IMG/VR virus record: IMGVR_UViG_2921643360_000001
Coordinates: 1 to 64,000 of that record
DNA length: 64,000 bases
Source of the DNA: a virus
Reading direction: 5' to 3' (one strand)
Below, piece after piece: positions 1,559 through 30,959 of the stretch (position 1 is its first letter; every line of letters starts with the position of its first letter). The notes under the pieces were generated by a model. It made no database searches and was not told where the DNA came from. It saw nothing but the letters and a program-made list of their open reading frames with translations. A program made the position numbers and the translations under genes.

Positions 1559-1795
1559 TTATCCTGCGGCTAGAAACTTCGGTTGCCATTTCTTCTTTGG
1601 CGGCTCGGCCTTGGTCTGCCGCCCTTCAATGGCCGTCCTCGGAATTATCGGACGCCCGCGCGCATTCTGCCAGAACGGGATACCCGACGTCCGCAGCCAT
1701 TCGACCTGTAATTCCTCCCGCGTCTTCCCGCGTCGGCCGATTCGCACGCCAGTAAGTTCGGCGACTTCATCAGCAGACAGAAACGTGTCGCTCAT
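1559..1795 (-). CDS. DUF4224-like small DNA-binding protein (excisionase-position gene)
   Basis: 'FLSADEVAELTGVR...QVEWLRTSGIPFWQNARGRPIIPRTAI' matches the DUF4224 pattern as I remember it. It lies directly upstream of int. Confidence 0.6.
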   Translation of the reverse strand: MSDTFLSADEVAELTGVRIGRRGKTREELQVEWLRTSGIPFWQNARGRPIIPRTAIEGRQTKAEPPKKKWQPKFLAAG

Positions 1796-3805: not shown

Positions 3806-4639
3806 TTACTTGCTGAGTTGGATCATCGGCATTGCGCTGCCCATCATGTACTGAGGGTAGTGCCCGTCCCATTTGGCGATCTTCTGTTGCTCGATCAGCG
3901 CGGGGTTTGCCTCAAGCGATTTGCCCGTCAGCTCATTGGCCTTGGCGTTGTTCTCAGCAACCTTCAGCGCTGCCTCAGACTCAACGACGCGCTTTTGCGC
4001 TTCCCACTTCGTCTGGGCAATTTCGTTCTCGACGCGCAATGCGTTCTGCTGGGCGGTGATCTTCGCCTCAATGGCGTCGTTGAACTGCTTGCTAAACTGG
4101 AAGTCAACGATGTTCACCGCCGACACATTCACGCCGATATTCTTGAACCGAGTCAGCAACGCCTCGCGGATCTCCTGACTAACCTGGTCCCGCTTCTGAA
4201 TCAGGTCAGTAGCTTCGTATCGGGCCACGATAGCCTTCACGATGTCATGCACTGCCGGGTCCATGACTTGCGCCCACGGATCGCCGCCGAGATTGGCATA
4301 AACGCCGACTGCCGCAGTCGGAAGAATATTGAAGTTGACGGCGACCTTCATGTCGGCCTGTTGCAGGTCTTTTGAAGAACCCGCGATATCCGATTGCGCC
4401 TTGTACACGCCGATGTAGACCGTGTGCATCGACTGCGAAATCGGCATACGGAAGTGGATGCCGGGCTCGTACACCGTGGCGGATGGAGCGCCGAACGTGG
4501 TCATCACGCCGACGTAGCCCGCTGGCACGGATGCGAACGGCCAGAGGATGAAAAGCGCGATGAGCAATACAACTGCGCCGATAGCGCCGAGGATCAGCTT
4601 GATGCCGCCTCGCGGGACTTCTCTGGATGCAACAGCCAT
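3806..4639 (-). CDS. SPFH / band-7 (prohibitin-like) membrane protein
   Basis: Start moved to the internal ATG at 4639, preceded by SD AAGGAAAA. An N-terminal TM helix (LILGAIGAVVLLIALFILW) is followed by the 'VPAGYVGVMTTFG' SPFH core and a coiled-coil tail. Confidence 0.8.
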   Translation of the reverse strand: MAVASREVPRGGIKLILGAIGAVVLLIALFILWPFASVPAGYVGVMTTFGAPSATVYEPGIHFRMPISQSMHTVYIGVYKAQSDIAGSSKDLQQADMKVAVNFNILPTAAVGVYANLGGDPWAQVMDPAVHDIVKAIVARYEATDLIQKRDQVSQEIREALLTRFKNIGVNVSAVNIVDFQFSKQFNDAIEAKITAQQNALRVENEIAQTKWEAQKRVVESEAALKVAENNAKANELTGKSLEANPALIEQQKIAKWDGHYPQYMMGSAMPMIQLSK

Positions 4640-4795
4640 TTGATTTTCCTTGTGGGTAGAAAAAGAGACCCGAACCGAAGTCCGGGCCTTAAGCGCCGTC
4701 CCAGTGGACCTACTGGCACGGATGGAGAAGAAGTGCCGCTGCCCTTGGTTCATGCGAAACGCGCTAGGCCAATGCATGTGGGCTGCGGCGGTAAG

Positions 4796-10349: not shown

Positions 10350-10502
10350 CTACGCCCAGACAACGCTGTCAAGGCTCACATAAACCGAATCCAGCACCCT
10401 TCCCGTCCGGGTTACCCGGTCGATGCGGTAGACGAATCCAAGGTGCTGCAACTTCTCCTGGGCTATCGTCATCAATCTGTGCACTGCGCGTTGGGGGTTC
10501 AT
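10350..10502 (-). CDS. Possible 50-aa ORF
   Basis: ATGA overlap with the upstream stop. Reads MNPQRAVHRLMTIAQEKLQHLGFVYRIDRVTRTGRVLDSVYVSLDSVVWA. Confidence 0.4.
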   Translation of the reverse strand: MNPQRAVHRLMTIAQEKLQHLGFVYRIDRVTRTGRVLDSVYVSLDSVVWA

Positions 10503-10852
10503 GATTGGCTCGCTAGCAATGCTTCGATCCGATCAGCCACTTCTCCGGGCGTTGTGCGGTCGCCATTCGGATAATGCGGCGAATAGAACAGGTCGCTTGA
10601 TACAGGGCCACTCAGTTCGAAGAACTCTTCGACCGCGTCCCACGATTCGTACCCGTTGAAATTCGGAACATCGTCGACCAACTTCAAACCTTGGTCTGTG
10701 AAAACCTTGTTGAAGCACGCATGGCCTACGGCGCAAGCCGTTGTTCCGCATGAGTTTTCATCGTCATGCCAACGGGCAAGATCGAACCTGATGGCGTCTT
10801 CCGGCAGGTTTCGCAGCATGGTCACCATTTGCTGCAAGCGTTCACGGTTCAT
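10499..10852 (-). CDS. Hypothetical phage protein
   Basis: Start placed at the second ATG (MNRERLQQ), which has GGAGG 6 nt upstream. Conserved-looking 'CGTTACAVGHA' segment. Confidence 0.55.
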   Translation of the reverse strand: MNRERLQQMVTMLRNLPEDAIRFDLARWHDDENSCGTTACAVGHACFNKVFTDQGLKLVDDVPNFNGYESWDAVEEFFELSGPVSSDLFYSPHYPNGDRTTPGEVADRIEALLASQS

Positions 10853-10956
10853 TTCAGCCTCCATGCATCCATCGCCTCAACAGCGATAATCGCTAGCAGA
10901 GCGAAAGTGGTGGGGAGTAGTTCGAGGTGGGTGAAGAGGGACATGGCGGCGGCCGG

Positions 10957-11334
10957 TTAGGCGGCTTTCTTGAACGTCCGGACGACCACCATCTTTTCTT
11001 CCTCGGTGACGTCCAGGTTGTAGGCCTCATCCATCCAGTCGATAGCCTCGGGCTCGCCGTGCTTGCCACCGCCGTACCAGTATGTCCAGCCTACCCATGA
11101 GCCGTCTGGAGCCTTAGCGGCTACCGACTTGCTCTCGTAGTGCCGCGACGACTGGCAGGGAAGTTTCGTTTCAACTTCGCCTTCGCGAACCTCGTAGATC
11201 GCGTCCCACTTGTCCTCGCACTCGTCGTACAGATCGTCGATGTTGTCGGCGGTCACTTCGACTTCAATCGGCGTCTCGGCCCAGTCGGCGATTCTGGCGA
11301 GGATGATGTGTTTGATCTTTTGTTCGGGCGTCAT
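10957..11334 (-). CDS. Hypothetical acidic phage protein; first convincing gene of the PL operon
   Basis: Start at the internal ATG 11334 (MTPEQKIKHII...), with a GGAG-containing leader. Confidence 0.55.
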   Translation of the reverse strand: MTPEQKIKHIILARIADWAETPIEVEVTADNIDDLYDECEDKWDAIYEVREGEVETKLPCQSSRHYESKSVAAKAPDGSWVGWTYWYGGGKHGEPEAIDWMDEAYNLDVTEEEKMVVVRTFKKAA

Positions 11335-11939
11335 GTCTGCTCCAATAGTTGTCCTAACCGCATTGCACAAAATACTGACGGGAGGGCGCTGTTACTGTGC
11401 CGCCGACTTCGGCTAACCTACTGCACCGCCATGCGCATGTTTCAGCGATGGGCTAACGTGGCTCAGTTTCGCGGGTACTCGTCGTTGGCAGGGAGCCCAG
11501 CGGGCCCTTTCGTCAATACTCGTCTCATGGAACGGGGCCGGCGGTTTCCATCTGATCCGGCTTGGGGCGTGGCACTGATTCCCCGCTTGTACGGCATATG
11601 CCGCTCATACCACCTATCACCGGAAGTTCGCGCCATTTAGGTCGTTCGACCGCAGGACTACCAGAGCCGGTTTCGATCTTGCTGCCCGTCACCACCGGGC
11701 TACCCGTTCCATCAAACTGCTTCTTCGGACCCATCCGGCTACACCTGGCAGGCCAGCTCCGGCCTGGGTCCGTCCTACTCCTCCACCAACCGCGCAACTC
11801 ACAAGGTCACGCGACTGCCGCAGGTGCGTTCGCTTTCTACTCGAGCGAACAGCTTTGTTCCGAGCTGCGAAAAGAAACCCCGCAGAATGGTTGGCTTAAC
11901 TACGCCTTTTGCGCACCATGGGCGCGACGTACTGTGAAG

Positions 11940-11951
11940 TTGTTAAAGAGC
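11940..11951 (-). promoter_or_regulatory. rrn-type boxA-like element (GCTCTTTAACAA) about 45 nt downstream of the predicted PL start
   Basis: The minus strand reads GGCTCTTTAACAACTTC. This matches 12 of the 13 nt of E. coli rrn boxA (TGCTCTTTAACAA) and sits where lambda carries nutL. Confidence 0.5.
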
Positions 11952-12000
11952 CCTCAGACTGCGAGGTGCGCCGTTGCGCGGTGTTGCTGGTATGGATAGA

Positions 12001-12029
12001 ACGATAGCAAACGCTCTCGAAGAACGCAA
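12001..12029 (-). promoter_or_regulatory. PL early-left promoter (-35 TTGCGT, 17-nt spacer, -10 TATCGT)
   Basis: Same hexamers, spacing and embedded operator as the PR copy at 12979..13007. Confidence 0.6.
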
Positions 12030-12038
12030 GCAAAAGCT
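12006..12038. promoter_or_regulatory. OL operators (AGCAAACGCT, AGCAAAAGCT; 23-bp spacing)
   Basis: Each is one mismatch from the OR motif AGCAAATGCT. The 23-bp phasing is identical to OR sites 2 and 3. Confidence 0.55.
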
Positions 12039-12081
12039 ATCGTTGATCGATAAATTTTTTTAGCGCTAGTGTTGCGCAGAA

Positions 12082-12106
12082 ACAAAAAAGCCCGCCGAAG
12101 CGGGCT
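12082..12106 (-). terminator. Rho-independent terminator after the repressor gene
   Basis: Minus strand reads GCCCGCTTCGGCGGGC followed by TTTTTTGTTT, 22 nt after the stop. Confidence 0.8.
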
Positions 12107-12127
12107 GAACAAGCGTTTGAGTGTTTT

Positions 12128-12910
12128 TCAGGTGCTGCGATACATGCCGGATCCGCGCGGCACGATGGCGCCTACACGATGGATAGACACGATATCGGCC
12201 AGCGACCTCGTGATTGGAGGAATGCCATTGTTGATCGAACCAAGGCTGACTTCCTCATCACGGATCCACAACAATTCTTTGACGACAGCGCTGCCGTCGA
12301 CAAACTTGACCACCACATCATCACCCGGAAGAGCTTCGACGCCGGGTTCCACAACGATGTGTTCGCCACTCTTTATGCGCGGCCTCATGCTATCGCCGCG
12401 CACCTTCAAACCATAGGCCGTTGGGTCTGGTGAATGGATGTTGAGCCATCCATGGCCGTGACCTGGCGGATAGTCGTCGATACTGATAAACCCATCCGGC
12501 CCACCCTGCACTTCCCCGACCACGGCTATATCCCTCCCAGCCTTTAGTTCCAATCGCTCGCCAACGTTTGCTTCTGCTCGTGGCAGGCCTTCGATACTAG
12601 CCCCACCTTTCGGGACCGAAGGCGCAATCATGCCTGACTTTTGCCGGTTCTTCGAGATATCAGTGTCCGCTGAAATGTGGTTGCCGGTGACGCCCAAATC
12701 GAAGTAGAGAGTCGGCAAGCCAAGTTCGGACTCGAGTCGCCGCGCAGCTCCTTCGCCGAACCCGCGTCCCTCCCGATAGTTCGGGTTCAGCAGTTGTCGG
12801 ATCCGAGCCGCATCCTGGTTGTGCAGTCGAGCGAATTCAGCGGCGACCCCTCCCGCCTCCCTGTCCACTAGTTCCTGTAGCCGCTTACGGCGGTGCGCAT
12901 GTATGTCCAT
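12128..12910 (-). CDS. CI-like repressor with LexA/S24 peptidase C-terminal domain
   Basis: Start at ATG 12910 (MDIHAHRRK). The C-terminus 'GLKVRGDSMRPRIKSGEHIVVEP...VVKEL' is the S24 Ser/Lys autocleavage fold. Transcribed divergently from the cro-like gene. Confidence 0.85.
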   Translation of the reverse strand: MDIHAHRRKRLQELVDREAGGVAAEFARLHNQDAARIRQLLNPNYREGRGFGEGAARRLESELGLPTLYFDLGVTGNHISADTDISKNRQKSGMIAPSVPKGGASIEGLPRAEANVGERLELKAGRDIAVVGEVQGGPDGFISIDDYPPGHGHGWLNIHSPDPTAYGLKVRGDSMRPRIKSGEHIVVEPGVEALPGDDVVVKFVDGSAVVKELLWIRDEEVSLGSINNGIPPITRSLADIVSIHRVGAIVPRGSGMYRST

Positions 12911-12932
12911 GGCGGAATTAGAACCGAAAACT

Positions 12933-13002
12933 AGCATTTGCTGTGAAAGCAGAATTTATCATTTCAGCACGCAAATGCTTGCGTTTAGCGGAAGCATTTG
13001 CT
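12933..13002. promoter_or_regulatory. OR operators: three copies of AGCATTTGCT / its complement
   Basis: Sites at 12933..12942, 12970..12979 (complement, 9/10) and 12993..13002, in the 103-bp divergent intergenic region. Confidence 0.7.
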
Positions 13003-13007
13003 ATCGT
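12979..13007 (+). promoter_or_regulatory. PR early-right promoter (-35 TTGCGT, 17 nt, -10 TATCGT)
   Basis: The -10 ends 6 nt before the cro ATG (13014), which implies a leaderless or near-leaderless cro mRNA. Confidence 0.55.
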
Positions 13008-13013
13008 TTGTCC

Positions 13014-13343
13014 ATGGATACCTTTCGCACCTACTTCAAAGGGCTGACCAAGGCCGAACGCGACGCGCTCGCCAAACAGGTCGGTACGACGGCTGCCTAT
13101 CTCTGGCAGATCGCCTACAAACAGCGTCGCTGCAACGAGTCGATGGCTATCGAGATTGAGAAAGCATCGCAGCGCGCGGTGACGGTCGAAGACCTTCGTC
13201 CCGATGTCGACTGGGCGTACGTCCGGAACTCGGCTCAGTCGATTGCCGATAGTGAAATTGTAGACCGCGCGCAGGCGAGCGACGACGCGCAACCGCCTGT
13301 AGGTCGCGGGAGCGCAGCTAGACACAAAAAAAGCAGTCAATAA
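13014..13343 (+). CDS. Cro/YdaS-like HTH regulator
   Basis: Internal ATG of ORF 12819..13343. 'LAKQVGTTAAYLWQIAYKQRRCNESMAIEIEKAS' is a YdaS/Cro-type HTH. Divergent from the repressor. Confidence 0.75.
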   Translation: MDTFRTYFKGLTKAERDALAKQVGTTAAYLWQIAYKQRRCNESMAIEIEKASQRAVTVEDLRPDVDWAYVRNSAQSIADSEIVDRAQASDDAQPPVGRGSAARHKKSSQ

Positions 13344-29469: not shown

Positions 29470-30648
29470 ATGCCTATCGCGCGCCAGTACGACGAACGGT
29501 TAAAAGAGTTTGCCGACAGCCGCGAGGCCGAATTCCTCAGTGCTGTGCTGGAGCATGGTTCGCCCAATGCGGCGGCCAAAGCGCTCGGGAAGCATCACAG
29601 CACCGTCATTCGGGCGCTGGACAGTTTAGAAGCGCGCGCCGCACGCATGGGTTATGCGCCGGCCTACGACATGACGCGTCCATGCCCGCCGGGGTTCCGG
29701 TCGCGCGGCACGTCGACACTCGTCAAGGCTGACGGCTCCATTGCCATGCAATGGGTGAAGACGGAAGCCGACAAGTCACAAGACGAAGCGATTCTCCGCG
29801 AGTTTGCCCAATCGCTGGCGGATGGCGTGAAGGGCTTGGCACCGATTACGCCCGCGCCGGCGCACGTTGTTTCCGATCTGCTGTGTGTCTATCCTCAAGG
29901 TGACCCACACGTCGGTTTGCATAGCTGGTGGGCTGAAGCCGGAGAAGACTTCGACCTGAAGATTGCCGAACGCCTGATGTGCGCCGCGGTTGATCGACTC
30001 GTCGCAACCGCGCCAGCAGCCGAAACCGCCCTGCTCCTAAATTTAGGAGATATGTTCCATGCTGACAATCAGAAGAACGAAAGCCAGTCGGGACATAAAT
30101 TAGACGTCGACGGACGCTGGGCAAAGGTTCAGCAGGTAGGATTGCGCGCGATGCTGCACTGTGTGCGCCGCCTGCTTGAAAAGCATAAGCGCGTGATTCT
30201 CCGCATCAACCGCGGCAATCACGACGGCCATTCGTCGTATGCGTTGGCGCTGATGATCTCGTGCTACTTCCACAATGAGCCGCGCGTGGAGGTCGACTTG
30301 TCACCCGCCGTCTGCTGGTATCACCAGTTCGGCGGCAACCTGATTGGATCGACGCACGGCGACACGATCAAAGGCCCGAATCTGCTGCCCGTCATGGCAG
30401 CGGACGTCCCCGAGATGTGGGGCGCAACAAAGCATCGCATGTGGTTCGTGGGTCACGTCCACCATCAGGACATCAAGGAATACCCGGGCGGCACGGTGGA
30501 GTACTTCCGCACGCTGGCCGCTCGTGATGCGTGGCACGCCGGGCAGGGATACCGCGCCGGACGCGACATGCGCCTGATTGTGCTGCACCGTGAGCACGGC
30601 GAGATCGAGCGGCACCGCGCAGACATTGGAATGCTGGAGGCGGCATGA
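29470..30648 (+). CDS. LysR-type-HTH-like N-terminus fused to a calcineurin-like metallophosphoesterase
   Basis: 'SAVLEHGSPNAAAKALGKHHSTVIRALDSLE', then 'GDPHVG', 'LGDMFHADN', 'RGNHDGH' and 'GHVHH'. Confidence 0.6.
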   Translation: MPIARQYDERLKEFADSREAEFLSAVLEHGSPNAAAKALGKHHSTVIRALDSLEARAARMGYAPAYDMTRPCPPGFRSRGTSTLVKADGSIAMQWVKTEADKSQDEAILREFAQSLADGVKGLAPITPAPAHVVSDLLCVYPQGDPHVGLHSWWAEAGEDFDLKIAERLMCAAVDRLVATAPAAETALLLNLGDMFHADNQKNESQSGHKLDVDGRWAKVQQVGLRAMLHCVRRLLEKHKRVILRINRGNHDGHSSYALALMISCYFHNEPRVEVDLSPAVCWYHQFGGNLIGSTHGDTIKGPNLLPVMAADVPEMWGATKHRMWFVGHVHHQDIKEYPGGTVEYFRTLAARDAWHAGQGYRAGRDMRLIVLHREHGEIERHRADIGMLEAA

Positions 30649-30959
30649 AAGCGATGACCAGCGGCGAGAAGGTCGCCCAGCTTGAGGCGCGCATTGCAGA
30701 GTTGGAGCGCTTGGTTGGCATTCTGACGCGTGAGCGCGATTCGAAGCCGCCTGCGGTGTACGGACCGCTCGACAGGACGCCAACACTTCCGGGCTGGCCG
30801 ATGGACCCAAAGCCGTTCGAGCCGGTATTCCCGCTGCCGGGAGCCATGCCAACGTGCGGTAAGTGCGGCATTACGCTGTCGCCGGTCATGGGCTATTGCT
30901 GCTCTCGCACTGATTGCCCGTGCGGGCTTGGCGGCGTCACTTGCACGACGACGGCATGA
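30645..30959 (+). CDS. Coiled-coil / Cys-rich small protein
   Basis: 104 aa. 'VAQLEARIAELERLV' is followed by a C-terminal CGKCG..CC..C.C cluster. Confidence 0.5.
   Translation: MKAMTSGEKVAQLEARIAELERLVGILTRERDSKPPAVYGPLDRTPTLPGWPMDPKPFEPVFPLPGAMPTCGKCGITLSPVMGYCCSRTDCPCGLGGVTCTTTA

What the first reader, a model, noticed from the sequence alone, without database searches (positions are those of the whole stretch)
11335..11994. About 660-nt ORF-poor leader between the predicted PL start and the first convincing early-left gene
Seen: PL can be placed at 12001..12029 by its near-identity to PR. The first well-supported minus-strand gene starts at 11334. The interval has no convincing ORF.

The only minus-strand ORF of at least 60 aa (11525..11797, TTG start, no SD) is R/G/P/S/W-rich and carries several AGG, ATA and AGT codons. 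The interval is dense in local 6-7-bp stems:
- GCGCACC...GGTGCGC around the boxA.
- GTTCGCT/AGCGAAC.
- GGACCC[..AGGCC..GGCCT..]GGGTCC.
- ATGGAA/TTCCAT.
- The palindrome CGGCATATGCCG.

Established: in lambda this position holds nutL and N. In HK022 it holds the cis-acting put antiterminator RNA, with no N-like protein.

Inference: there are three options. It could be a long structured regulatory RNA (a put-like antiterminator, an sRNA or a sponge). It could be a highly divergent, disordered N-like protein (the 90-codon ORF). Or it could be the decayed remains of an accessory gene.
Basis: partly seen in the sequence, partly recalled or inferred. Interest (0 to 1): 0.6.

Follow-up and report, generated by a model that had tools for sequence, protein, structure and literature searches.

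The report
tRNA-shaped structured RNA in prophage leader
The "empty" 660-base stretch after this prophage's early-left promoter carries a conserved, intricately folded 186-base RNA with a tRNA-like outline that belongs to a sizeable family of phage RNAs absent from the standard RNA catalogue; what it does is still unknown.

Summary
PL (12001-12029, minus strand) is about 85% identical to PR, and the first solid gene starts at 11334. Nothing between them is coding: the 90-codon ORF has no relatives, and a 1-nt indel breaks its frame in the closest homolog.

The leader holds two conserved noncoding modules. The first is a nut-like site: an exact rrn-type boxA (11940-11951) followed by a hairpin (11911-11925). 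The second is a 186-nt structured RNA (11527-11712, minus strand).

This RNA has six helices. P0 is the closing stem, and P1 to P5 radiate from it. There are also a P1-loop/P5-loop kissing interaction and a probable second pseudoknot. Covariation across about 15 homologs is strong: 96.5% of cells are paired, against 35-51% when partners are slid. The homologs come from a Pseudomonas D3-like phage, a Paraburkholderia prophage and viral metagenome contigs.

Rfam 15 has no match, and HK022 put RNA is unrelated. The outer frame (P0, P1, P5) recurs around other cores in about 30 further viral contigs. It has tRNA topology and sometimes sits inside phage tRNA arrays.

My best reading is a tRNA-shaped RNA module co-transcribed from PL and probably excised. 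A cis-acting antiterminator and a riboswitch remain rivals. Function is untested.

The parts
12001..12029 (-). PL promoter: -35 TTGCGT (12029-12024), 17-nt spacer, -10 TATCGT (12006-12001). The inferred transcription start is near 11994.
   Evidence: Read directly from the sequence. About 29 of 34 positions match PR on the plus strand (12979-13007). The strict sigma-70 consensus scan does not list it, so the start site is inferred, not mapped.
11940..11951 (-). boxA, GCUCUUUAACAA: an exact rrn-type NusB/NusE loading sequence about 43 nt into the transcript.
   Evidence: It is the only match with at most 1 mismatch in the 64-kb window. boxA-like sequences sit at the same position in L028 (GCACAUUAACAA) and L004 (GUUCAUGAACAA). 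The role of BoxA comes from PMC7665894.
11911..11925 (-). boxB-like hairpin, GCGC-CCAUGGU-GCGC, 14 nt downstream of boxA.
   Evidence: The loop CCAUGGU is conserved in L004 and L028. The stem covaries: GCGC/GCGC in the window against GUCC/GGAC in L028. It is the only such hairpin in the window.
11828..11890 (-). Conserved leader segment: CCAACCAUU, a hairpin (CUGCG...CGCAG, 11885-11865), CUCGGAAC, then a hairpin GUUCGCU-CGAGUAGAA-AGCGAAC (11850-11828).
   Evidence: Alignment with L004 and L028 shows conserved single-stranded motifs and loops. The stems change compensatorily: UCCC-GAAA-GGGA, and CCGCU/AGCGG or CCGAU/AUCGG. Only three sequences carry this segment.
11527..11712 (-). The structured RNA element (class A), 186 nt, bounded by closing helix P0.
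   Evidence: The covariance model scores it 97 bits, E 3.6e-26. Homologs in about 15 distinct loci score 41-102 bits.
11703..11712 (-). P0 5' strand, AUGGAACGGG. It pairs with 11527-11536 (CCCGUUCCAU).
   Evidence: All 7 modelled pairs show double-sided changes across homologs, with 98% of cells paired.
11684..11700 (-). P1 hairpin, GCCCG-GUGGUGA-CGGGC, which resembles a tRNA D-arm. The last 5 loop nucleotides, GGUGA, kiss the P5 loop.
   Evidence: 3 of 5 stem pairs covary. The loop-loop pairing is supported.
11672..11683 (-). J1/2, AGCAAGAUCGAA: a conserved joining segment containing a T-loop-like GAUCGAA.
   Evidence: It is near-invariant in alignments A2 and A6. L020 is an exception.
11619..11671 (-). 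P2: base helix ACCGG/CCGGU enclosing a 43-nt variable insert.
   Evidence: All 5 base pairs covary. The insert length ranges from 5 to 43 nt among homologs, and these differences are not multiples of three.
11605..11618 (-). J2/3, GAUAGGUGGUAUGA. Its GUGGUAU is complementary to the P4 loop (proposed pseudoknot PK2).
   Evidence: RNAalifold proposes this 7-bp pairing. The segment is invariant in the pattern-retrieved set. In L073, a U-to-C change turns a U.G pair into C-G.
11591..11604 (-).
   Evidence: A G-C pair becomes A-U in L003 and L020, which also carry 24-32-nt insertions in the loop.
11564..11590 (-). J3/4 (ACAAGC) followed by the P4 hairpin, GGGG-AAUCAGUGCCACG-CCCC.
   Evidence: The P4 stem covaries: GGGG/CCCC, GCGG/CCGC, UCGG/CCGA, ACUGG/CCAGU. 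The loop is conserved.
11537..11563 (-). AA followed by the P5 hairpin, GCCGG-AUCAGAUGGAAACCG-CCGGC, which resembles a tRNA T-arm. It abuts the P0 3' strand with no spacer. The loop's UCA...CC pairs with the P1 loop.
   Evidence: The stem becomes GCAGG/CCUGC in L009 and GCUGG/CCAGC in L108. For the kissing loop, 74 of 75 cells are paired and 3 of 5 pairs covary. Across 33 further elements the G/C against A/U correlation is 19:14 with no exceptions. In the window's subgroup the partner is split by an 8-nt insert; this step is inference.
11335..11526 (-). Non-conserved 3' spacer running to the first gene. GGAG (the ribosome-binding site) is at 11343-11340.
   Evidence: Similarity to relatives ends about 40 nt past the element. 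No intrinsic terminator is present.
12089..12106 (-). Intrinsic terminator of the repressor gene. It is context only: it isolates PL transcripts from cI transcription.
   Evidence: a 7-bp stem, a UUCG loop and a T-run.

Best explanation
**What it is.** The leader is a genuine long untranslated RNA carrying two conserved modules.

1. Right after the PL start, an rrn-type boxA plus a conserved hairpin forms a nut-like site. I infer that it loads the host Nus factors, so that RNA polymerase is not stopped by Rho while it crosses about 660 nt that no ribosome covers.
2. About 280 nt into the transcript lies a 186-nt RNA domain that folds on its own and has a tRNA-like outline.
   - A closing helix, P0, is acceptor-like.
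   - Helix P5 is stacked directly on P0, as a T-arm is on the acceptor stem.
   - P1 is a D-arm-like hairpin whose loop forms a 5-bp Watson-Crick kiss with the P5 loop. This is the analogue of the tRNA elbow.
   - In place of the anticodon arm there is a large conserved core: P2 to P4, invariant joining strands and a probable second pseudoknot.

**What I infer it does.** The module is co-transcribed from PL and, like other tRNA-shaped elements, is cut at its borders by tRNA-processing nucleases: RNase P at the 5' side of P0, and RNase E or RNase Z type enzymes at the 3' side.
- This would release a compact, stable RNA whose conserved class-A core binds a partner that is still unknown.
- It would also sever the untranslated leader from the early-left mRNA.

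**Shown and inferred.**
- Shown: the structure, its conservation, the strand, the frame family, and the absence of coding.
- Inferred: Nus loading, processing, and any trans-acting role.
For: **Structure.**
- In a hand-made structural alignment of 14 sequences, 35 pairs are canonical in 431 of 431 cells, and 24 pairs show compensatory changes.
- In the alignment made by the covariance model, 96.5% of cells are paired, against 35-51% with partners slid. 21 of 31 pairs change on both sides, and 0 of 500 shuffles reach the observed values.
- Kissing loop. In 33 independent frame elements the P1-loop purine and the P5-loop pyrimidine correlate perfectly (19 G/C, 14 A/U; Fisher p 1e-9).
- G.U pairs (P3 closing pair, P1, P2, P4), together with the proposed PK2 wobbles, fix the functional strand as the PL-transcribed strand.

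**tRNA likeness.**
- P5 abuts P0 with 0 nt between them, and the P0-P1 linker is most often AAU.
It.0 per set in 20 shuffled sets and 0 on the reverse complement.
- 6 of 35 frame elements lie within 1 kb of same-strand phage tRNA genes, as close as 1-6 nt.

**Module behaviour.**
- Conservation stops at P0.
- The element is always co-directional with early genes but sits at different operon positions: after PL, mid-operon, early-right in L032, and before terminase in L008.
- Tandem copies with other cores occur.
- No conserved neighbouring gene was found.

**boxA.**
- The match is exact and unique in the window.
- BoxA/Nus protection of long noncoding transcripts from Rho is established (PMC7665894).
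- RNase P is known to process phage regulatory RNAs, polycistronic mRNAs and tRNA-like elements (PMC4919922).
Against: - No experiment or transcript data were available. The transcription start, any processing and RNA stability are all inferred.
- The element has no CCA or discriminator. Its P5 loop is not a canonical T-loop. Rfam tRNA and tmRNA models and default ARAGORN do not detect it.
- None of the class-A copies is called over its full length even at the relaxed ARAGORN threshold, so the tRNA likeness rests mainly on the smaller family members and on topology.
- In roughly a quarter of the elements examined, a ribosome-binding site and start codon follow the 3' end of P0 within 18-41 nt. 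In several others an intrinsic terminator follows. That layout equally suits a cis-acting leader.
- Homologs were fetched with sequence patterns, so the apparent invariance of J2/3, J3/4 and the P4 loop is partly due to how they were found.
- The covariation controls are not corrected for phylogeny.
Confidence: 0.4

Rival explanations
1. **Cis-acting elongation control (works like put).** The folded nascent RNA, together with the boxA/Nus complex, modifies the transcribing polymerase so that it reads through terminators in the 10-kb early-left operon. This would stand in for the missing N protein.
For: - The element lies just downstream of PL and next to an exact boxA, in a lambdoid prophage with no detectable N-like protein.
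- An intrinsic terminator lies between the element (or its tandem partner) and the next gene in FBPa47/L002, L032, L008 and L003, and weakly in L028.
- A strong terminator lies 6.6 kb downstream in the window's own leftward unit, at 4689-4666.
- RNA-only antitermination exists in HK022 (PMC9378689).
Against: - There is no similarity to putL or putR.
- The window has a single copy and none in the PR or late operons.
- Seven of twelve contexts have no terminator before the next gene, the window among them.
- The same frame carries many unrelated cores and occurs inside tRNA arrays. That is hard to reconcile with one conserved polymerase-binding surface.
- The total terminator count is at chance level.
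Confidence: 0.2
2. **Riboswitch-type sensor.** The class-A core is an aptamer for a small molecule or ion. Ligand binding stabilises P0 and P5 and so changes termination or ribosome access downstream.
For: - The architecture is typical of aptamers: a multi-helix junction with near-invariant joining strands, peripheral stems of variable length, a loop-loop kiss and a pseudoknot.
- In several relatives a terminator or a ribosome-binding site lies immediately 3' of the closing helix.
- In L009 the uniquely altered P5 3' strand, UCUCCUG, is complementary to the downstream ribosome-binding site, CAGGAGA. This was noticed after the fact.
- Related elements occur in tandem.
Against: - Downstream genes are unrelated small phage proteins with no common function.
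- No consistent expression platform exists, and the window has 190 nt of non-conserved spacer and no terminator.
- Candidate alternative pairings mostly involve the palindromic CCGG and so say little.
- The frame is shared by many different cores.
Confidence: 0.13
3. **Processing or stability signal only, or a self-cleaving ribozyme.** The fold would serve just to punctuate the polycistronic RNA or to cap the downstream mRNA against 5'-end-dependent decay, with no separate role for the excised RNA.
For: - The element ends 18-23 nt before the start codon in many family members.
- tRNA-like processing signals are known, for example plant mitochondrial t-elements and mascRNA (PMC4919922).
- Conserved junction nucleotides together with pseudoknots are also typical of small ribozymes, which often occur in prophages (my own knowledge).
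Against: - A pure punctuation signal would not need the large, strongly conserved class-A core.
- No known ribozyme family matches.
- The window copy is 190 nt from the gene.
Confidence: 0.15
4. **Protein-coding or decayed gene.** The 90-codon ORF would encode a disordered N-like protein, or the region would be a pseudogene remnant.
For: An open frame of 90 codons exists at 11525-11797 on the minus strand.
Against: - It starts with TTG, has no ribosome-binding site and has no homolog among 5.8 billion proteins.
- A 1-nt indel breaks the frame in L033, and substitutions show no third-position bias.
- Indels in P2 and P3 among homologs are not multiples of three.
- The compensatory changes preserve RNA pairs, not codons.
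- The public annotation calls no gene here.
Confidence: 0.02

Closest known systems
HK022 putL/putR antiterminator RNAs
   Same: Both are cis-encoded RNA in the untranslated leader just downstream of an early promoter of a lambdoid phage that lacks N. In some relatives of this element, terminators lie downstream.
   Different: put is about 70 nt with two stem-loops, is present behind both PL and PR, and binds the RNA polymerase beta' zinc-binding domain (PMC9378689). This element is 186 nt with six helices and pseudoknots, and the window has one copy. It shows no sequence or covariance-model similarity to put. It also belongs to a tRNA-shaped family found in tRNA arrays.
Lambda-type nut sites and rrn/CRISPR BoxA antitermination
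   Same: There is an exact rrn-type boxA followed 14 nt later by a conserved hairpin, near the 5' end of the PL transcript. BoxA protects long untranslated RNAs from Rho (PMC7665894).
   Different: The hairpin loop, CCAUGGU, is unlike the lambda or P22 boxB loops. No N-like arginine-rich protein was found. There is no counterpart in the PR operon.
tRNA-like modules: the tmRNA tRNA-like domain, bacterial and phage Y-RNA-like YrlA, plant mitochondrial t-elements, mascRNA
   Same: An acceptor-like closing helix is stacked on a T-arm-like hairpin. A D-arm-like hairpin touches the T-like loop. A large insertion replaces the anticodon arm. Some copies sit in tRNA gene arrays.
   Different: There is no CCA end, and the T-loop is not canonical. 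The elbow is a 5-bp Watson-Crick kiss rather than the G18/G19-psi55/C56 contacts. Rfam tRNA, tmRNA and Y-RNA models do not detect it. Aminoacylation and processing are untested.
P1/P7 C4 and P4 CI immunity RNAs
   Same: These are small structured phage RNAs made from an early-operon leader. C4 is a documented RNase P substrate (PMC4919922, ref. 206; the statement that they derive from an early-operon leader is from my own knowledge).
   Different: They are antisense RNAs with target sites in the same transcript. No above-chance complementary target was found here. The Rfam C4 families do not match.
Orphan prophage-associated structured RNAs in Rfam (Betaproteobacteria-1, DUF3800 RNAs, GOLLD/ROOL)
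   Same: They are conserved structured RNAs of unknown function in (pro)phages, sometimes next to tRNAs. Betaproteobacteria-1 lies about 480 nt upstream of the element in L013.
   Different: None of these families matches the element itself.
Riboswitch aptamers with loop-loop kisses (purine, lysine)
   Same: A closing helix, a multi-helix junction with invariant nucleotides, and peripheral loops that kiss (my own knowledge).
   Different: There is no association with a gene function, no consistent expression platform, no known ligand and no model match.

Membership tests
HK022 put RNA | About 70 nt, two stem-loops, sequence similarity to putL/putR | tested here: not met
   putL and putR were read from AF069308. 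The element's covariance model gives only noise on HK022, at most 4.8 bits. The element is 186 nt with six helices.
HK022 put RNA | One copy downstream of each early promoter (PL and PR) | tested here: not met
   Only one copy was found in 64 kb, with filters on and off, and it lies behind PL only.
HK022 put RNA | Acts in cis on RNA polymerase (beta' zinc-binding domain) and suppresses termination without protein factors | not testable with these tools
   This needs reporter or in vitro transcription assays.
Lambda-type nut site | A boxA sequence near the start of the early transcript | tested here: met
   GCTCTTTAACAA at 11951-11940 is an exact match and is unique in the window.
Lambda-type nut site | A boxB hairpin shortly downstream of boxA | tested here: inconclusive
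   A hairpin with the conserved loop CCAUGGU and a covarying stem lies 14 nt downstream. Its loop is unlike known boxB loops, and only three sequences carry it.
Lambda-type nut site | A phage N protein with an arginine-rich motif that binds boxB | tested here: not met
   No N-like small ORF was found in the early-left operon. The arginine-rich 79-aa protein of L004 has no homolog in the window. The PHROG annotation of early genes shows none. The search was not exhaustive.
Any Rfam 15 family | A covariance-model score at or above the gathering threshold | tested here: not met
   There were no hits in the window, and nothing over the element even at E up to 10. The homologous and frame loci gave none for the elements themselves.
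tRNA / tmRNA | Detected by tRNA or tmRNA models; canonical T-loop; 3' CCA or discriminator | tested here: not met
   Default ARAGORN and Rfam tRNA/tmRNA models find nothing. No conserved CCA follows P0.
tRNA-like structure (topology only) | An acceptor-like helix coaxial with a T-like arm, a D-like arm, and a D/T-like loop contact | tested here: met
   There is a 0-nt junction between P5 and P0. The kissing loop is supported. Relaxed ARAGORN makes 8 full-length calls out of 49, against 0 in the controls.
Riboswitch | A conserved aptamer supported by covariation | tested here: met
Riboswitch | An expression platform that overlaps the aptamer, and an association with a gene function | tested here: inconclusive
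   A terminator or ribosome-binding site follows in some relatives but not in the window. The downstream genes are unrelated.
Riboswitch | Specific ligand binding | not testable with these tools
   This needs in-line probing or ITC.
C4/CI-type antisense immunity RNA | Loops complementary to target sites in the same operon | tested here: not met
   The longest complementary runs in the elements' own loci are 11-14 nt. For 11-mers in the window, about 5 were expected and 5 were seen.

The most novel reading that the evidence does not exclude
The element would be the most elaborate member of an uncatalogued superfamily of phage RNAs built on a tRNA-derived scaffold. In this superfamily the anticodon arm has been replaced by interchangeable functional cores. 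The class-A core, with its invariant junction and double pseudoknot, would be an active domain: a ligand or protein sensor, or a ribozyme. Temperate phages of Pseudomonas and Burkholderiaceae would place it at the head of their early operons to gate expression. That would make it a new class of regulatory or catalytic RNA that reuses the tRNA fold for processing and stability.
Probability: 0.2. Interest if true: 0.85.

Novelty: new variant of a known kind. Interest (0 to 1): 0.7.

Why it matters
- **A well-supported structured RNA of this size that no catalogue holds.** It is 186 nt, has six helices and at least one covarying tertiary contact, and has no Rfam match. I found about 30 further relatives that share its frame.
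- **A possible recurring design in temperate phages.** The tRNA-like frame, and the copies sitting inside phage tRNA arrays, suggest that these phages reuse the tRNA fold as a portable scaffold for other RNA functions.
- **A directly testable question for lambdoid biology.** This prophage has no N protein. It has an exact host-type boxA followed by a complex RNA in the PL leader. One can now ask how such phages get polymerase through a long untranslated leader and a 10-kb early operon.
- **Consequences for annotation.** Whichever mechanism is right, the element accounts for an ORF-free leader and would improve annotation of many prophages. Its reverse strand currently produces spurious ORFs.

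Tried and rejected
- **Rfam.** The whole window at gathering thresholds and the leader at E up to 10 gave nothing over the element.
- **Single-sequence folding.** The energies are not better than shuffles, so thermodynamics was dropped as evidence.
- **MAFFT alignments of full or trimmed elements.** They misaligned P0 and the variable loops. I replaced them with a hand-segmented alignment and with N-padded, loop-trimmed seeds for the covariance model. This is a workaround and was used for searching only.
- **put homology.** Rejected.
- **Coding readings.** Rejected.
- **A second copy in the window.** None was found. A weak hit at 30569-30691 lies in coding sequence.
- **An N-like protein.** None was found.
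- **Antisense targets in the elements' own loci.** They are at chance level.
- **A C-rich, rut-like tract after the element.** It is present in 3-4 loci but not in general.
- **Anti-terminator pairings between P5 and downstream terminators.** They involve the palindromic CCGG and so say little.
- **CRISPR-repeat mimicry by the boxB-like hairpin.** Considered from memory of type I-C repeats and dropped, because it is the loop that is conserved, not the stem.
- **Similarity to hammerhead, group II domain V, sigma-54 promoter and 16S rRNA.** Considered by eye and dropped.
- **Literature search by sequence motif.** It found nothing relevant.
- **One 2026 preprint on ncRNA mining.** It could not be read.
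Full report
**1. The observation**

The minus strand of 10800-13200 was read directly.
- The repressor gene (12128-12937; PHROG repressor) ends in a strong terminator at 12106-12089.
The same hexamers and most flanking bases recur on the plus strand as PR (12979-13007).
- PR sits 7 nt before the ATG of a Cro-like gene (13014-13343), which therefore looks leaderless.
- The first leftward gene starts at 11334 behind GGAG. It has high GC3 and a PHROG match, and it is the gene called in the public record of this contig (GCA_004334975.1, MWML01000013.1). That record calls nothing in the leader.
- The window is a lambdoid prophage with integrase, Erf, cI, cro, NinG, a NinI-like phosphatase and terminase.

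**2. Not coding**

- The 90-codon TTG ORF (11525-11797) has no relative among 5.8 billion proteins. The opposite-strand ORF has none either.
- Against the closest homolog (L033, 90% identical over 240 nt), a 1-nt indel shifts the frame. Substitutions fall 15/8/11 over the three codon positions.
- Among homologs, the P2 and P3 inserts differ by lengths that are not multiples of three.

**3. A conserved element**

- blastn against 50,697 phage records found one match. It is a 66-nt stretch in an unannotated intergenic region of Pseudomonas phage vB_PeaS_FBPa47 (Detrevirus), directly followed there by an intrinsic terminator.
- Pattern scans built on the shared motifs found more copies in IMG/VR contigs and in JGI metagenome contigs.
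- Among 185,579 species-representative genomes the pattern matched only a Paraburkholderia phymatum prophage.
- Two 50-57-kb P. aeruginosa "plasmids" also carry it.
- Conserved blocks (GAUCGAA, GAUAGGUGGUAUG, GUACAAGC, AAUYAGUGCCAC, AAGCCGG) are separated by hairpins of variable sequence and length.
- The whole element is enclosed by complementary ends that differ from phage to phage.

**4. Structure**

I segmented 14 sequences by hand into P0, P1, J1/2, P2, J2/3, P3, J3/4, P4, AA, P5 and P0'.
- All 431 cells of 35 proposed pairs are canonical, and 24 pairs show compensatory double changes.
- P0 was located by its complementarity, so part of this result is by construction.

I therefore built a covariance model from a loop-trimmed, N-padded seed and let Infernal realign the real sequences.
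- On that alignment 96.5% of cells pair, against 35-51% when partners are slid by 1-3 columns.
- 21 of 31 pairs change on both sides, and no shuffle out of 500 reaches the observed values.
- The window element scores 97 bits (11528-11711, minus strand) and is the only copy in 64 kb, with filters on or off.
- G.U pairs, plus the wobbles of a proposed second pseudoknot, would be A.C mismatches on the other strand. The functional strand is therefore the one PL transcribes.

**5. Tertiary contacts**

The last five nucleotides of the P1 loop are complementary to a pentamer in the P5 loop, and the pairing covaries.
- The pairs seen are GGUGA/UCACC, GAUGA/UCAUC, UGCGA/UCGCA, GCUGA/UCAGC and ACCGA/UCGGU.
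- Cognate loop pairs are more stable than non-cognate ones, at -5.6 against -3.0 kcal/mol.
- In a hand-registered mini-alignment, 74 of 75 cells pair and 3 of 5 pairs change on both sides.
- L032 lacks P5 and also has a different P1 loop.
- In the window's subgroup the P5 partner appears split, as UCA[GAUGGAAA]CC. This step is inference.

RNAalifold also proposes a second pseudoknot: J2/3 GUGGUAU pairing with the P4 loop GUGCCAC over 7 bp.
- Both strands are invariant in the pattern-retrieved set, so covariation cannot test it.
- In L073, which was retrieved independently, a U-to-C change converts a U.G pair to C-G.

**6. A wider family with a tRNA-like frame**

- A weaker second hit lies just downstream of the element in L019. 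Look-alikes in L004 and L008 share P0, P1, AA-P5 and the kiss but carry different cores.
- Scanning IMG/VR for the P1 hairpin alone (GCGCAGTGRTGATGCGC) returned 92 loci. Several are chance matches in coding sequence.
- 33 distinct loci have the full frame: P0 (6-12 bp), AAU, P1, a core of 35-148 nt, (A)A, P5 as GCCGG.(N)AUCAYC(N).CCGGC, then P0'.
- The class-A model detects 33 frame elements in these loci at 19-73 bits.
- The purine in the P1 loop and the pyrimidine in the P5 loop correlate perfectly (19 G/C, 14 A/U, no exceptions; Fisher p 1e-9). The search did not impose this.

The frame has tRNA topology.
- P5 abuts the 3' strand of P0 with no spacer, as the T-arm abuts the acceptor stem.
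- P1 (GCGCAGUGGUGAUGCGC) resembles a D-arm.
- The loop-loop kiss stands where the D/T elbow is.
It.0 per set in 20 shuffled sets and 0 on the reverse complement.
- Six of 35 frame elements lie within 1 kb of same-strand phage tRNA genes, as close as 1-6 nt.
- Rfam has no family for any of them.

**7. The 5' module of the leader**

- GCUCUUUAACAA at 11951-11940 is an exact rrn-type boxA and the only one in the window.
- Fourteen nucleotides downstream is the hairpin GCGC-CCAUGGU-GCGC.
- The Paraburkholderia prophage (L028) and an IMG/VR phage (L004) have the same order: boxA-like sequence, a hairpin with the same loop but a changed stem, CCAACCAUU-hairpin-CUCGGAAC, and a hairpin with loop CGAGUARAA. 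The element follows 100-200 nt later.
- BoxA loads NusB/NusE and protects long untranslated RNAs from Rho (PMC7665894). This is a sensible reason for it to sit at the head of a 660-nt ribosome-free leader. That link is inference.
- No N-like protein was found.

**8. Context and function**

- In every locus the element is co-directional with small early genes, but its position varies:
  - directly behind PL (window, L028);
  - after one or more genes (L004, L019, FBPa47, L003, L020, L034);
  - in the early-right operon (L032);
  - before terminase (L008).
- An intrinsic terminator lies between the element (or its tandem partner) and the next gene in five contexts, one of them weak. None does in seven, including the window.
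- In many frame elements a ribosome-binding site and start codon follow within 18-23 nt.
- Downstream genes are unrelated to each other.
- No complementary targets above chance were found, and there is no general C-rich tract.
- HK022 put RNAs are unrelated.

**9. Verdict**

- What the element is, is well supported: a conserved, pseudoknotted, tRNA-shaped RNA module in a Nus-protected untranslated leader, belonging to an uncatalogued phage family.
- What it does is not shown.
- I rank the readings as follows:
  - excision as a stable tRNA-like RNA whose core binds an unknown partner, 0.4;
  - a put-like cis antiterminator, 0.2;
  - a pure processing or stability signal, or a ribozyme, 0.15;
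  - a riboswitch, 0.13;
  - coding, 0.02.
- Precedents for RNase P acting on phage regulatory RNAs, operon mRNAs and tRNA-like elements are in PMC4919922.

**10. Caveats**

- Homologs were retrieved by exact sequence patterns, which inflates the apparent invariance of the motifs used.
- The alignments were partly fitted by hand or by the model.
- The covariation controls ignore phylogeny.
- The covariance-model E-values are rough.
- No expression data were available.

Noticed in passing
window 12979-13016 (+): PR ends 7 nt before the ATG (13014) of the Cro-like gene. Its mRNA is therefore probably leaderless, in contrast to the 660-nt PL leader.
   Followed up: partly
window 4666-4689 (-): A strong intrinsic terminator (10-bp stem, UUCG loop, T-run) lies inside the leftward transcription unit, just inside or upstream of the lipoprotein-like ORF 3806-4777. 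It may be a tL-type terminator or the boundary of a moron.
   Followed up: no
L019 9174-9331 (-); L004, about 100-215 nt downstream of its element; L008 3489-3594 (-): A second, divergent element lies in tandem downstream of the class-A copy. It shares P0, P1, P5 and the kiss but has a different core. In L008 it is followed by a terminator and then the terminase operon.
   Followed up: partly
L032, about 350-420 nt upstream of its element; L013/L030, about 290 nt upstream: Short mini-elements reuse the same P0 sequence as the main element of the locus (CGAGAGUCG...ACUCUCG and GUGUGG...CCACAC). This suggests local duplication.
   Followed up: no
L013 9294-9413 (-): The Rfam Betaproteobacteria-1 RNA (59.8 bits) lies about 480 nt upstream of the element on the same strand. 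L003 carries a DUF3800-VII RNA at 10395-10480 (+). These prophage regions are dense in orphan structured RNAs.
   Followed up: no
L001 (FBPa47) about 1778-1789 (+): An exact rrn-type boxA, GCTCTTTAACAA, lies on the plus strand inside the annotated minus-strand CDS FBPa47_0058, 2.2 kb upstream of the element. Either the annotation is wrong or there is an unrecognised transcript.
   Followed up: no
L085 1109-1693 (-); L074 954-1380 (-); L093; L112: Frame elements are embedded in phage tRNA arrays. In L085, two tandem copies are followed 6 nt later by tRNA-Gly, tRNA-Asn and tRNA-Arg. In L020 and L048, tRNA 3'-half-like fragments lie directly upstream of the element.
   Followed up: partly
L034, 760-1881 nt upstream of its element; L002, 2092-3318 nt upstream: Insertion-sequence genes interrupt the early regions of two relatives. 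By N-terminal sequence (recognised from my own knowledge, not run against a family library) they look like a TnpB/IS605 OrfB-like protein of 373 aa and an IS256-type transposase of 408 aa. The TnpB gene ends about 660 nt before the element, so the element is not its omega RNA.
   Followed up: no
window 12128-12937 (-) / L037 1854-2207: The public annotation calls only a 117-aa Peptidase_S24 product for the repressor. The open frame of 269 aa also covers an N-terminal part that aligns to phage repressor/regulator families (residues 10-86). The deposited gene start is probably too far downstream.
   Followed up: no
L004, 713-952 nt upstream of its element: The first gene after L004's PL encodes a 79-aa protein with an arginine-rich N-terminus (MNSSQRRKAYRAM...). 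It is a possible N-like factor in that phage and has no counterpart in the window.
   Followed up: partly
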